A stretch of DNA of 62,915 nt, counting the filler, from Perkinsus chesapeaki ATCC PRA-425 (Eukaryota > Protista > Perkinsozoa), in assembly GCA_013115145.1 (NCBI GenBank). It is 10 parts of 10 records of this genome, joined end to end, with 100 filler letters (N's around TTAATTAATTAA, not from the genome) between each part and the next. Parts side by side here need not be neighbours in the genome. Positions count along the whole stretch, not along the records: positions 9,059 to 14,178 come from JAAPAO010001189.1; positions 14,279 to 22,511 come from JAAPAO010000985.1; positions 22,612 to 44,257 come from JAAPAO010000592.1; positions 44,358 to 48,619 come from JAAPAO010001285.1; positions 48,720 to 50,471 come from JAAPAO010001799.1; 5 more parts are not named here. One strand, given 5' to 3'. The translations under genes were made by a program, and so were the position numbers. The notes below the pieces were generated by a model that ran no database searches, had not been told where the DNA came from, and saw only the letters and a program-made list of their open reading frames with translations. Of this stretch, positions 12,007 through 50,280 are shown in pieces. Numbering within the stretch: the first letter of the stretch is position 1; every line of letters begins with the position of its first letter.

Positions 12007-12168
12007 TACCATTCAATGGTAACCATTGTATTGTTTTCTGTGTTGTACTTTCCACAACGAGGAAACACGCCCCCCCCAGTGAGTTTATAAGCTTCATTTT
12101 ATACACCAGCAAGTACAGGCTGTACTTGCTGGTGTATAAAACGAGCTGTACTGTACAGCTCAGCTGTA
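12007..12168. repeat. Chain of palindromes with 1-nt centres, including 22-bp perfect arms
   Basis: 12007-12028 T-ACCATT-C-AATGGT-A-ACCATT-G; 12097-12141 TTTTATACACCAGCAAGTACAG-G-CTGTACTTGCTGGTGTATAAAA; 12143-12161 GAGCTGTAC-T-GTACAGCTC; 12154-12168 TACAGCT-C-AGCTGTA. Confidence 0.95.
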
Positions 12169-13139
12169 AGAGATTCATGTTGGGCTTGGGACTCATTTAA
12201 TTGCTTTGGGGTTTCACTAATTTGGTCTGGGTTTAATTTAAATAGGTCTCGATAAATTTGCTCTGTCCCTGATAATGTTGTCGCTGACTCTCTAGATGGT
12301 TCAGAATCTTTACACCGTTGACACTATGCTCCTAAGAATCTTCCGCCTCGAGCGTGGGAGCAAGTGACATGATGTCGAGTCGTACAGCGGACGTCTCGAC
12401 GTCAATTATTATAATTGATAATAACTGAATTCGGTTACTATCATTGAATTATAGTGGAGATGTACCTGTACTACACGTAGAACTATTTTACGCCCGTGTA
12501 GTACATACCCAATGAACTAGATAATGACTAGAAGGATGTTTTCCTGTTTCTTCTCAAGTCGAAGTGGCCGAACATTTGGGGACGTGTTTGGCATGTGAGC
12601 AGCTAGGCTCCTAACTTCCTGGCCAGGTGCGTGCCATCTAAGTTGCGGTAATCAACAGAGAAATAGTCCGAACTCATTTCTTCGGCAAGTGAAAGATATC
12701 CTACAGGTTTAACTGTATGACAGAAATGTCCTACACGCCATTCAGTATTGAAAGAACAAGCATTCGAATAATACGTCTGGTTGGGTACGAGTGATTCGCA
12801 TCAATGTACTCGCCTATCAACACGGATTTTGGGTGCATTTTCGAACTGTGATTGCTATGAATATGTCACACAGAATTTGCGCGATCATTCAGTTTCTCAG
12901 TAGTGTAACCCTTCGCTCCGCCCTTGTGTATGCGTGCACGGTATTCTGAGCATTAGCTATATTTCATATTCCGTCTCACAAGCTCCTTCTGACCTTGTGT
13001 TCTACGTATGAGTAAGAATACTGCAACAAGTAGTACTGAGTCAGTACTGACAAAGAGCGCTGCTCTGGAGATTTAAGGGTACATGCATTATATATAGGGA
13101 CTCCCAATCAGGGAACAAGTCCATGCCACATATGTAACG

Positions 13140-14178
13140 GTTCTGATTGTTCGGAACAACTTTTCTGACAAAAAGGCTGAGCTATGAACTTCATAGTATG
13201 AAGTTGCTGAGCATAGGCTGCGCAGTGTATTCTCCTGTACTAAAGAATCTTCAGGGAGAGCAAAGCCAATTGCATTGTATCGAGGAACATCTACTGTTCC
13301 TCTATGATCCTTCGATCCCCGGGAGATCATTATATCCATACGTAGCCGATTCCACGATTCTTGACTGTCTCCCTGAGCGCATGCGTACAAAAATAATGGA
13401 GAGATTAACTATTGCGGAAGGCTGGGGATCGACTAATGCAATTTTAAACTACTACTCAGAAAAGTTTGCTGGGAATATGTTGCAGTGTTTGCTTCTATAG
13501 CAAAAGTCAAACCAAGTGCACTCTTTCGAGGAACTTCTAATGTTTTTCTATGACTATAGCCGATGTCACGGTTCGTGACTGTCCCTCTGAGGGCATGCGC
13601 ACGAAGAGAAGATTTACTATTTCGGAAAACTGGTGACCAACCAGTGCGATTCAAAAGTAATTCGGCTTTACAGGAGTTAGAAATTTCGAAGCAGATAGTG
13701 ATAGTGCCCATGGTCAACGTACTCCTGATATCTACTGTCAGCACCTATGCAGTCAGTGGAGCTACTGTGTTAAGACAGGAAATCAAGTACTATGATGTGC
13801 TCGGAGTGAGAATTGGTCCACCTTCGTTGTCTGTCAGGCCGGTCTTCGTGACAAGTGGTAGGACTTCACCATCAGTAATATAACGCATCGACCTATGTTA
13901 GATCCCTATCCTAAACCTGATGGACTCTGCCAAAAGACTGCTCAAGGTTATGTTGGATGCACTTGCCCGAACGATACTCGGCTGCACTGTGAACCAGCTG
14001 TAGGAGACTGCACATAAACATCCCAGCAAGAAGTCATTCCAAACTTTTTCCAGACGGTATGGTCATACACTCCCAAATCCTGTGTATGCGGGCAAGAGTG
14101 CTCTAAAGACTCCGATTGTCCGGGCCAGTCTAACGGTGATGCTACACCGGTCTGCAGCAAAGGTACATGTCTGCTGAA
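13140..14178 (+). pseudogene. Degenerate transposase-like relic, possibly MULE
   Basis: Broken frames with MULE-like spacing: VFSCTKESSG (Zn-finger-like), RTKIMERLTIAEGWGSTNAILNYY, and NLMDSAKRLLKVMLDALARTILGCT (resembles D.e.al..a..f...i.gC.FH). Many stops and frameshifts. Confidence 0.3.
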
Positions 14179-47619: not shown

Positions 47620-49289
47620 AGGACACTTATCTAAGTCTTTCATAATTATAAGACTATAACCTATTCTCAACGTAAGTGAATTATTTCTAATAAATAGTAA
47701 AACTTTTTTCGCAGATACCTAAATAGTAATCATTCCTTTACGCCGTAATGACGAAGATTTAGCTTTTAGATTCAAGTGATATGACTATTCCGTGTGATCA
47801 ACTACTCCGCATGAAGTCCCTGTTGGGCGCGTCGTGTTTTTACTTTATTAGCGTTGAGTTTAGTAGCACTAAATTGGTTTATTAGTACAGTATTGTTTTC
47901 CCTCAGTAGCGCTCATCTTTGTTCACCCTATGACATCCTTCCCCTTCAACTTTACCGCATACCAAGGTTCAGAATCGGGACTTCAAATCGAGGTATTTCA
48001 AACAATCCACGTAAGGCATTCACCAGTTACTTTTTTATTTAATCCACTCTTGCTCCGACTTTTATAGGAAGAGGTTTTACCGCAACTGTAGTATCTTGCG
48101 TGAAATGGTAAATTACTTTAGTACGTAAGGTTGTTTCTTACAGTGAGCTATTAATATGATATTAAATGTTCATTAGTAAGTGATGTTGAATACTTTCAGG
48201 AATATAAAGCGTGTATGACACATTGACTTTAATTTGGCAGTTGCATAATGGTGGTCTATTAATCATATCGTTCGCGCCTAACTTATTGCTCGTATAACAT
48301 ACGCACTACTATCAAGTTCTCAGCGAGTTTTGGATGTTGCGCATCAATCTTCGTTAAAATTGAAGTAGCTCGCAATTAAAGAAAGCCTCAGAACGCTATT
48401 CGGGTACCACTGTGACAGTACCACATGACATATTGTACTGTAGAATTTGCACAACTGCAATCCTATCAGCGATTGTCCAGTACCCCATCCTTGGGACATA
48501 ATTTCAAGCCCCGCAGGTAGCGCCGGCTAGCACTTTGCATATGCGGACACCGCTAGGTGGCAGAAACCATTTTTCCCCATTGTTTTTCAGCGAGCGGGTA
48601 GGGCCCCACGAGCGTCCAANNNNNNNNNNNNNNNNNNNNNNNNNNNNNNNNNNNNNNNNNNNNTTAATTAATTAANNNNNNNNNNNNNNNNNNNNNNNNN
48701 NNNNNNNNNNNNNNNNNNNTTTTGATTCAATCATTGCTTCGCTCCGCTAAGCTCGCGCTCGCGCTCGCCAAGCTTCGCGCACTGATTGACAACAAAAACA
48801 CGTCGTTCGTGCAATATGCAGGAAAAGCGCACAATCTCATATTTTTAGAACATAATGATACCGATAGTGAAACTAAGGCGGGAAATGGGACGCCCATTTA
48901 CGTAAAGTTTATCTTGACTATCCCGGTATTCTACCGATCAATTTTTTGATATTTTTTTGGCATTTTTGTCGATTTTGCCTATTTTTCCGCTAATTTTTTT
49001 TCCATTGCGGAAATTGCGGAAATTTCCGCAATGGAAATTCCCGCAAATTGCCAACAGCATACCCAGTATCCTTTCACCTATCAACTGCATCTTTCTTTTA
49101 CTTCCTATGTCTCGAGTTCCAGTGTCGTTGGTAGTGTCAATTCGGTACCCCAGACATTCACTAGTGGCGTCCGCACGGTGGTACCAAAGACAATTGAAAG
49201 GTATGTCCCCATGACTGTCCCCTAGCGCTAGTTGTAAATATATGTAGATTGATAAGTCTGTTTTGTGAACTATTTAAGATCTCCAGTGG

Positions 49290-50280
49290 AGATTCTCCAC
49301 TTTGATCTAAAGTTCATGAGTGACCCGAAACCGAGTAGTGTTCTCAATATCTCGACAACTGACATTTGCTTTGCCATAACATACAATACACATCGAGGGA
49401 AAGGGCATCGAGTACCTCAATGCGGTAACCTCATTGGTAAGACACACCTGACCTGAGATACTCTGACGGGTCAGGGACTCTGACTCAGAGTCCACAGGTG
49501 ACCTTGAGTCAATATCCTATGGAGCGCTGAGAGCCATCCGGGGAGAGGTTTGTATATGGTTGACGGTATCGCTGCGATACTATCGCATTGTATCCACACT
49601 CTGCGTCCTGGACTTGGCAGAATACTGCCAGCTCTATCGCGTTATTTGGTTGATTTGCTCATGCTGAAATAGTTGGGATATCCTTACCAAGTCATTTCTA
49701 TCGGAATGTACGCTTTTCGTCAAGTCCTGTTGCAGTAAGTTACTGCCAGTAACCGTAGGCCCACTGAGCAGTGTAGCTTGTAAAACTGGACTCCAAGCAA
49801 GTCAACAAATAAGTTGGATTGAAGCAATCGGACTAGTAATACGATTCTCGTATACCAGCCAAAAATTTTCGAGAAATCCAGGAAAACAATCTGTTGCACT
49901 CGGACTCATCCAGTGTGTTCTAATAGTCTCGAGGGCATCTCAGAATTGGCAGACCTCGGATTTCTTGAGTAGCCTCTCAAACTCCAGCCTCACATTAAAT
50001 GTCAAAAGTATGCTCAATTCGTCTCGCAGAACCGCTTGAAGCGGTTCGCTTCTATCTCTTTCCGATCAGTCTCACTGCGTGTCATGTAGTGACCTACCCT
50101 GTAGTCAAAGATATTCCAGCGCAGACCCTTCCGAGAAGCTATGGAAAGAGGCATTTTGGAAGAACACGGAGCCATTTCGGCGATGGTGCAAGCAGCTTGC
50201 GCAAGCTCTCGTTTCAATTATTTATTAGTGATGAAACTGGGGTTATTCGGCAATCTGACACCGATGCTGTGTTCATGTAG
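49290..50280 (-). pseudogene. Degenerate DNA-transposase relic, possibly MULE C-terminus with SWIM-like finger
   Basis: Broken frames include RLEFERLLKKSEVCQF*DALETIRTHWMSPSATDCFPGFLENFWL (resembles eF...l..i...w...f..yF...W) and YRIEVLDALSLDVYCMLWQSKC (SWIM-like). Many stops. Confidence 0.35.

What the first reader, a model, noticed from the sequence alone, without database searches (positions are those of the whole stretch)
12007..49753. Window-wide family of 22-nt a-X-b'-X'-a'-X-b motifs: hairpin-type excision footprints of an 8-bp-TSD element
Seen: eight perfect 22-mers of the form a, X(6), complement of b, reverse complement of X, complement of a, X, b. They lie at 12007, 13182, 43338, 43499, 43521, 43963, 49566 and 49732. 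Implied 8-mers aXb: TACCATTG, CTATGAAG, CTTGACAT, CTCCTGTC, TTGGTAAC, GTTTCACT, GTATCGCA, GCAGTAAC. The pattern fixes 14 bases, so about 2e-4 are expected in 63 kb of uniform random sequence. Established: hAT transposases (Ac/Ds, Tam3, Hermes, Ascot-1) make 8-bp TSDs and excise through hairpins on the flanking DNA, leaving palindromic P-nucleotides centred on the complement of the innermost base. Inference: each motif is left TSD + opened hairpin joined by X' microhomology + right TSD, a net +14 nt. Seven of eight 8-mers have T2 and/or A7, loosely matching nTnnnnAn. I saw none in the recognisable housekeeping exons; most sit in dead transposon-like DNA. Such density points either to an enormous insert-and-excise history or to a hairpin-forming nuclease that preferentially scars repetitive DNA. 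I know of no description of this in this lineage.
Basis: partly seen in the sequence, partly recalled or inferred. Interest (0 to 1): 0.92.

Follow-up and report, generated by a model that had tools for sequence, protein, structure and literature searches.

The report
Stereotyped transposon excision scars in Perkinsus
The DNA of this clam parasite (Perkinsus) carries one exact kind of 14-letter mirror-image insertion about once every two thousand letters, likely the healed wound left when a hAT-type jumping gene cut itself out, so past transposon visits would be countable straight from the sequence.

Summary
Confirmed, and stronger than reported. The window is Perkinsus chesapeaki-like. No perfect ones occur at X=7-12. 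The motifs are +14 insertions on a single 8-mer: another copy of a gypsy element lacks exactly 14 nt at 54490 in 4 of 4 runs, four homologous proteins read through that frameshift, and the other copy carries its own +14 motif where the window has the bare 8-mer. Contigs from two samples reproduce 15 motifs letter for letter. Both centres are the complement of the innermost base (27 of 31), the hAT signature. Rarer long-armed scars share the geometry. Best reading: hAT-type excision, both flank hairpins opened far from the tip, joined through the 8-nt complementarity that the TSD supplies. Not found: the element or its transposase (no genome held). P. marinus is listed with Ku70, Ku80 and Lig4, so loss of NHEJ is not the explanation. 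The T2/A7 bias is weak. The scan noted the same scars on other Perkinsus DNA (five notes). New variant of a known kind.

The parts
10713..10734 (.). perfect 22-nt scar (missed by reader)
12007..12028 (.). perfect 22-nt scar; a 2-mismatch motif overlaps it at 12014
13182..13203 (.). perfect 22-nt scar
20445..20466 (.). perfect 22-nt scar (missed by reader)
42440..42461 (.). perfect 22-nt scar (missed by reader), downstream of the end of protein homology of the methyltransferase-like gene
42707..42728 (.). perfect 22-nt scar (missed by reader); an 83%-identical copy lacks 12 letters here
43289..43310 (.). perfect 22-nt scar (missed by reader); a 1-mismatch motif overlaps it at 43302
43338..43359 (.). 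perfect 22-nt scar
43499..43520 (.). perfect 22-nt scar, abutting the next one; a 2-mismatch motif overlaps it at 43481
43521..43542 (.). perfect 22-nt scar
43963..43984 (.). perfect 22-nt scar
49279..49300 (.). perfect 22-nt scar (missed by reader)
49566..49587 (.). perfect 22-nt scar
49732..49753 (.). perfect 22-nt scar
54489..54510 (.). perfect 22-nt scar (missed by reader) that shifts the frame of a gypsy gag gene; another copy lacks exactly 14 nt here
10474..10495 (.). scar, 1 mismatch
11691..11712 (.). scar, 1 mismatch
19612..19633 (.). scar, 1 mismatch
20826..20847 (.). scar, 1 mismatch
42938..42959 (.). scar, 1 mismatch
43190..43211 (.). scar, 1 mismatch
43302..43323 (.). scar, 1 mismatch, overlapping 43289
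43908..43929 (.). scar, 1 mismatch
49413..49434 (.). scar, 1 mismatch
49470..49491 (.). scar, 1 mismatch
50031..50052 (.). scar, 1 mismatch
57091..57112 (.). scar, 1 mismatch
57423..57444 (.). scar, 1 mismatch
12097..12161 (.). long-armed scar: left palindrome arm 22 nt centred at 12119, right arm 9 nt centred at 12152, both on the same 8-mer with complement centres
22682..22734 (.). long-armed scar: left arm 20 nt centred at 22702, exact 7-nt TSD remainder 26 nt further on
53844..53902 (.). long-armed scar in the gypsy gag gene: arm at least 18 nt centred at 53862, TSD remainder (1 mismatch) at 53896; four homologues read straight through
55596..55641 (.). two abutting odd-centred palindromes (arms 13 and 10) whose flanks are not a shared 8-mer; likely a hairpin joint without a TSD
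54044..54051 (+). bare 8-mer in the window; the other gypsy copy has a 14-nt insertion here that reads as a perfect 22-mer
   Evidence: read by hand for runs X1 and X3
53987..53994 (+). bare 8-mer with a self-complementary core; the other gypsy copy has a 7-nt insertion here (7 + complement centre + 7)
   Evidence: read by hand
53844..55253 (+). context: broken gag-protease region of a Ty3/gypsy-type retrotransposon
50392..50471 (+). context: possible DNA-transposon end (TAGGG start, short subterminal repeats) running into an assembly gap; not shown to be the cutter
   Evidence: resemblance to hAT ends is recalled

Best explanation
Each 22-mer is a 14-nt insertion on a single 8-nt site, and is likely the empty donor site of a hAT-type cut-and-paste transposon that duplicated those 8 bases on landing and later excised. 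Shown: the 7-8-7 layout, the fixed 8-nt unit, complement bases at both centres, flank-only letters, and bare 8-mer alleles. Inferred steps: (1) insertion makes aXb[element]aXb; (2) the transposase nicks one base into each flank and seals each flank as a hairpin, losing the innermost base on one strand; (3) a host nuclease opens each hairpin 8 or more bases from the tip, leaving 3' arms a-X-b'-rcX-a' on the left and its mirror on the right (a 5' arm filled in would give b, not b', at the centre); (4) because the flanks are a duplication, the last 8 nt of the two arms are exactly complementary and anneal; (5) flaps are trimmed and gaps filled, giving net +14. When another, shorter match is used, long arms survive (12119, 22702, 53862); when X is self-complementary a 7-nt shorter product appears (53987, other copy). 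Annealing in the other register would restore the bare 8-mer and leave no trace. Scars are missing from conserved exons most simply because +14 shifts the frame.
For: Peak at X=6 only, 15 perfect against 0.0 in shuffles. Both centres complement in 27 of 31 cores; the palindrome runs past the 8-mer in 7 of 28 on each side, as chance predicts. Exactly 14 letters left out at 54490 in one contig of each of 4 of 4 runs, while run X1 also holds the window's version unchanged. 4 of 4 non-self homologues (P0013-P0016, three Perkinsus species) read through the frameshift at this spot. Reciprocal +14 and +7 insertions of the same geometry in the other copy. Odd-centred palindromes are enriched (arm 7: 37 vs 3.3; arm 12 or more: 5 vs 0) while loops of 0 and 2 are not at arm 7 (3 vs 2.7; 2 vs 4.2); of the 5 with arms of 12 or more, 2 have an exact and 1 a one-mismatch TSD remainder downstream, 1 abuts a second palindrome, 1 lies in a tandem repeat. 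The 8-bp duplex is more stable than the arm's own snap-back in 15 of 15 perfect scars in a simple nearest-neighbour model. PMC5873905 (Discussion read): Ds footprints are centred on the complement of the base next to the element, arms reach 20 nt in yeast, and 85-100% of plant and yeast footprints have microhomology. PMC5499845 (passages): hAT TSDs are predominantly 8 bp.
Against: No element between 8-bp TSDs was found in the window and no hAT family hit among 185 translated fragments; no genome is held, so the cutter is unidentified. The target bias towards T2/A7 is weak. Known hAT footprints are heterogeneous (28 types among 128 in C. albicans, PMC5873905), not stereotyped. P. marinus is listed with Ku70, Ku80 and Lig4 (PMC6635534 Table S1), so why short NHEJ-type footprints are rare here (+8 class 3 vs 1.1; +7 classes 4 vs 4.4 and 9 vs 4.1) is unexplained. 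At 42707 the diverged copy lacks 12, not 14, letters (83% identity). All runs are contigs, and both samples are flagged as possible sources of this DNA.
Confidence: 0.8

Rival explanations
1. Same route, but the cutter is a Mutator-like element (MULE) or another hAT-related DDE enzyme with an 8-bp TSD that also seals the flanks as hairpins.
For: Muta1 makes hairpins on flanking DNA and has 8- or 9-bp TSDs (PMC5499845 passages). The densest scar cluster sits in what looks by eye like MULE transposase relics at about 42560-43930 (Atlas lead only, 0.83 for a cluster with 16% MULE members). Merlin (8-9 bp TSD) and Dada (6-7 bp) sequences are reported in P. marinus (PMC8101967, PMC3706591 passages).
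Against: No perfect scar for a 9- or 10-bp unit (X=7, 8). More than 90% of Muta1 excisions in yeast were precise (PMC5499845). The one-base-in nick with complement centre is documented for Ac/Ds (PMC5873905); I saw no such statement for MULEs. The relics are targets here, not sources.
Confidence: 0.11
2. A host or domesticated hairpin-forming nuclease cuts with an 8-nt stagger, the ends are filled and hairpinned, and no element ever inserts; it may prefer mobile DNA.
For: No element was found; scars cluster strongly (11 of 28 in 3 kb, several overlapping or abutting); the young gypsy copies carry at least four scars within about 650 nt.
Against: Needs a duplication step and a hairpin step by an unknown enzyme, whereas insertion plus excision supplies both. 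Clustering also follows from selection against frameshifts and from local re-insertion (recalled for Ac/Ds).
Confidence: 0.05
3. Polymerase template switching (fold-back or synthesis-dependent end joining) at random breaks writes forward-reverse-forward copies.
For: Such repair does make short inverted and direct repeats (recalled).
Against: It gives no reason for one unit length (15 at X=6, 0 at X=7-12) or for complement bases at both centres in 27 of 31.
Confidence: 0.03
4. Library or assembly artefact (fold-back reads).
For: No raw reads could be laid; both DNA samples are flagged as possible sources.
Against: 15 motifs in 42440-44194 stand with 0 differences in contigs of two samples from two studies; scars show graded decay from 0 to 3 mismatches; scarred and unscarred copies coexist in one run.
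Confidence: 0.01

Closest known systems
Ac/Ds (hAT) excision footprints in plants, S. cerevisiae and C. albicans (PMC5873905 Discussion read; PMC1978519 and PMC4561436 passages)
   Same: 8-bp TSD, flank-derived P-nucleotides centred on the complement of the base next to the element, microhomology at the joint, arms up to about 20 nt.
   Different: Those footprints are mixed and mostly short; cited microhomologies are under 6 bp (PMC4561436). Here one product with two full P-arms and up to 8 nt of TSD-derived complementarity dominates, is fixed in a natural genome at about 0.45 per kb in this window, and short footprints are barely above chance.
Ascot-1 footprints in Ascobolus (Colot 1998) and Ds repair in yeast (Yu 2004): not held, seen only as reference entries; content recalled
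   Same: Recalled: hairpin opening away from the tip and joining at short homologies.
   Different: Could not be read, so I cannot say whether the exact +14 product appears there as one footprint among many.
Muta1 MULE of Aedes aegypti (PMC5499845 passages)
   Same: Hairpins on flanking DNA, 8- or 9-bp TSD.
   Different: Mostly precise excision in yeast; no 9-bp class of scar here.
V(D)J coding joints (RAG) and Transib
   Same: Flank hairpins opened by a host nuclease, P-nucleotides (PMC5499845 passages).
   Different: Recalled: flush nick giving even palindromes, and a 5-bp TSD for Transib. The flush layout was tested and is absent.
mPing (PIF/Harbinger) excision repair (PMC4561436 passages)
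   Same: The TSD itself supplies the microhomology that steers repair to one outcome.
   Different: There the outcome is precise restoration from 3-nt staggered ends, with no hairpin and no scar.

Membership tests
hAT excision footprint | 8-bp target site duplication | tested here: met
   Peak at X=6 only; unscarred alleles hold one 8-mer.
hAT excision footprint | Palindrome centred on the complement of the base next to the element | tested here: met
   27 of 31 cores have both centres complement; definition from PMC5873905.
hAT excision footprint | Inserted letters come from the flanks, none from the element | tested here: met
   All 14 added letters are fixed by the 8-mer in 15 perfect motifs with 15 different 8-mers.
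hAT excision footprint | Scar is derived relative to an empty allele | tested here: met
   54489, 54044 and 53987 in the other copy, 53862; approximate at 42707.
hAT excision footprint | Target preference like nTnnnnAn (recalled for Hermes) | tested here: inconclusive
   T at position 2 in 22 of 56 readings, G in 6 of 56, pyrimidine in 38 of 56; 4 of 7 newly found perfect scars fit T2 or A7.
hAT excision footprint | A TIR element between 8-bp TSDs as occupied allele | tested here: inconclusive
   None in the window; repeats collapse into assembly gaps here, and no genome is held.
hAT excision footprint | A hAT transposase gene in the genome | not testable with these tools
   No hit in 185 window fragments; whole genome not held.
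MULE excision site | TSD range 8-10 bp with 9-bp class | tested here: not met
   0 perfect and 0 one-mismatch motifs at X=7 and X=8. An 8-bp-only MULE is not excluded.
Transib/RAG-type joint | Flush hairpin: unit, reverse complement, unit with no centre base (recalled) | tested here: not met
   Unit 5: 2 hits and unit 6: 1 hit, all inside the repeat at 50407-50452; units 7, 8, 9: none.
Genome lacking classical NHEJ | Loss of Ku70, Ku80, Lig4 | not testable with these tools
   Not testable for this species; the sister species P. marinus is listed with all three (PMC6635534 Table S1; Lig4 and ligase I share one COG there, so that call is soft).

The most novel reading that the evidence does not exclude
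Perkinsus runs a hit-and-run hAT-type system that is aimed at other mobile DNA: it lands, leaves, and the cell's long-arm hairpin repair turns each visit into a +14 frameshift, so that on the order of ten thousand scars act as a transposon-silencing mutagen, despite intact Ku and ligase IV.
Probability: 0.1. Interest if true: 0.88.

Novelty: new variant of a known kind. Interest (0 to 1): 0.64.

Why it matters
Excision of DNA transposons normally leaves mixed or invisible marks, so past activity is inferred only from surviving copies. Here the mark is self-describing: one regular expression finds it, gives back the 8-bp target, and its mismatches give a relative age. That would make insertion-site preference, turnover and the share of genome growth due to excision directly measurable in a natural genome. 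If the window were typical (it may not be), 0.45 per kb over the 43.5 Mb of contigs in run X1 would mean some 20,000 scars. It also points to a hairpin-repair route that opens far from the tip in an organism listed with NHEJ genes. In practice the scars break reading frames and mislead gene models: P0012 skips the 54489 scar as an intron and P0014 skips the stretch holding the other copy's two scars.

Tried and rejected
Whole-genome scan: no genome held. TIR-plus-TSD searches in the window: strict none, relaxed 11 chance-like pairs, one with an 8-bp flank pair, none convincing. Pfam on 114 and 71 translated fragments: no DNA-transposase family. Self-BLAST: no paralogue of a scarred region inside the window. 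Homologue search for the MULE-like fragment 43650-43934: none at E 0.1. HMMER search with frame 49668-50036: 2 repetitive proteins that do not align back to the window, rejected as spurious. Atlas searches for 11730-12005 and 45826-46389: no usable hit. Related loci of the gag-protease in metagenome and viral contigs: none. The 50392 terminus: one copy in the window, none in metagenomes, no look-alike in earlier notes. The idea that Perkinsus lacks NHEJ was considered and not supported. Short footprint classes (+7, +8) were counted and are at or near chance; the +6 count (124 vs 16.6) is mostly microsatellites and was set aside. The apparent absence of the window's gypsy copy from sample S2 contigs is not used, since contigs show presence only.
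Full report
Source. 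Exons in the window match proteins named for Perkinsus chesapeaki almost letter for letter (P0001; P0012 100%), with P. olseni and P. marinus homologues further off. The window is a chain of contigs joined by N spacers. No whole genome is held, so all counts are for this window.

The observation. All 8 motifs are real, and 7 more perfect ones exist. At X=6 there are 15, 13, 9 and 17 motifs with 0, 1, 2 and 3 mismatches against 0.0, 0.017, 0.37 and 6.6 in 60 shuffles made in 500-nt blocks. X=7 to 12 give no perfect motif; X=5 gives 2, one of them in a CTG repeat; X=3 gives 5 against 1.05. Among 31 cores with at most one core mismatch, 27 have both centre bases as complements of the outer bases, and the palindrome runs past the 8-mer in 7 of 28 cases on each side, as chance predicts. 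None of the 28 best motifs lies in 1-9000 or 21001-42000, where Pfam finds helicase, cyclin, acyltransferase, F-box/LRR and GPI2 exons; 11 lie in 42000-45000.

Not an artefact. Contigs of run X1 cover 40800-44214, and contigs of X3 and X5 (a second sample and study) cover 41514-44214, with no difference from the window, across 15 motifs of which 7 are perfect. These are contigs, not raw reads, and both samples are flagged as possible sources, so independence is likely, not certain.

They are +14 insertions. The scar at 54489 sits at a frameshift in a gypsy gag gene; the 4 non-self homologues found align to one frame up to 54495 and to another from 54501 and are continuous themselves. In each of 4 runs one contig lacks exactly 14 letters at 54490, and X1 also holds the window's version unchanged. 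The same other copy, about 95% identical and matching P0014 in two 9-nt gaps, has a 14-nt insertion at 54045. Read by hand against for X1 and X3, it forms a perfect 22-mer on the 8-mer that stands bare at 54044-54051 in the window; X2 and X5 place the insertion 7 nt further on, which needs one substitution that the cut table does not show. That copy also has a 7-nt insertion at 53987 giving 7 + complement centre + 7 on an 8-mer with a self-complementary core. Against this, an 83%-identical copy at 42707 lacks 12 letters, not 14.

A second class. Palindromes with a one-base centre are enriched at arm 7 (37 vs 3.3), 8 (13 vs 0.7), 9 (9 vs 0.2) and 12 or more (5 vs 0); loops of 0 and 2 are not enriched at arm 7 (15 shuffles). 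Of the 5 longest, 12119 and 22702 have an exact 7-nt TSD remainder downstream, 53862 has one with a single mismatch and breaks a gag stretch that four homologues read through, 55609 abuts a second palindrome with an unrelated flank, and 50452 lies in a tandem repeat. Short footprints of +7 and +8 are at or near chance.

Mechanism. Shown: layout, unit length, centre bases, direction of change. Inferred: an element inserted with an 8-bp TSD; excision nicked one base into each flank and sealed hairpins; these were opened 8 to 30 or so bases from the tip to leave 3' arms; the last 8 nt of the two arms are complementary because the flanks are a duplication; annealing, trimming and fill-in give +14. 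In a simple energy model the 8-bp duplex (-6.9 to -11.4 kcal/mol) beats the arm's snap-back (-2.2 to -4.6) in 15 of 15. The long-armed cases are what remains when a 2-4 nt match is used instead. The other register would restore the 8-mer and be invisible, so the scars are a lower bound on visits.

What is missing. No element between TSDs and no DNA-transposase family among 185 fragments. A TAGGG-starting end with subterminal repeats at 50392 runs into a gap; its likeness to hAT ends is recalled, not tested. Loss of NHEJ would be a tidy cause, but P. marinus is listed with Ku70, Ku80 and Lig4 (PMC6635534, Table S1: part 1 of 5 and the Perkinsus row read), and a preprint reads plasmid integration in P. 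marinus as NHEJ-like (10.1101/2021.06.11.447996, passages).

Comparison with what is known. PMC5873905 (passages and Discussion) describes Ds footprints as P-nucleotide palindromes centred on the complement of the adjacent base, usually with microhomology, but varied: 28 types among 128. PMC5499845 (passages) gives 8 bp as the main hAT TSD and shows flank hairpins for the MULE Muta1, whose excisions are mostly precise. PMC1978519, PMC4561436, PMC3706591, PMC8101967 and PMC8062965 were seen as passages. Colot 1998 and Yu 2004 are not held and may show this product as a single footprint. Ten full-text searches listed no paper on such scars in Perkinsus or on one dominant +14 hAT scar in a natural genome; the library lacks most subscription papers, including Perkinsus genome papers that may bear on this.

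Earlier notes. The scan recorded the same scars on other Perkinsus DNA (e1-9738730, e1-7243045, e1-9776510, e1-9879662) and a hAT-like MITE with an 8-bp TSD in P. olseni (e1-9864289). My reading was set before I saw them; they are unchecked and are not counted as support.

Verdict. It works like a hAT excision footprint and meets the four sequence-level criteria; membership stays open until the element is found. The chemistry is known; the single dominant product and its density are the new part. New variant of a known kind, interest 0.64.

Noticed in passing
window:41224-42310 (runs X3, X5): Sample S2 holds a second version of the methyltransferase-like gene, about 81-84% identical and at similar depth, and its contigs total about twice those of X1: a mixed culture, hybrid or polyploid.
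   Followed up: no
window:44173-44257: A repeat at roughly 25-30 times single-copy depth starts with TG at about 44189 and cuts off the third part of a scar at 44173; likely an LTR inserted into an older scar.
   Followed up: partly
window:42560-43930: Fragments that look by eye like two MULE transposase relics; Pfam silent, Atlas lead only. This is the densest scar cluster, with overlapping and abutting scars.
   Followed up: partly
window:43387-43799: A paralogous contig in runs X1, X3 and X5 has 365 letters where the window has 411, a 46-nt excess across a stretch with 4 motifs.
   Followed up: no
window:15949, 19255, 31902, 48724, 60987: Five perfect motifs with X=3 against 1.05 expected: possibly a second scar class on a 5-bp unit, possibly low-complexity noise.
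   Followed up: partly
window:9489-9507: One clean motif on a 7-bp unit (X=5), perhaps a 7-bp TSD variant.
   Followed up: no
window:44700-47620: A spliced gene of unknown kind ending in a long Gln/Pro-rich exon (46767-47441), with no Pfam or Atlas hit for the exon tested and no scar with at most two mismatches.
   Followed up: partly
window:48999-49061 and 48720-48800: Palindromic and repeated GCGGAAATT-type and CGCGCT-type stretches that resemble ends of DNA transposons; no partner end found.
   Followed up: partly
window:58610-61329: Two tandem intron-free class 3 lipase genes.
   Followed up: no
window:54460-54506: The database gene model P0012 treats the scarred stretch as an intron, hiding the frameshift.
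   Followed up: yes
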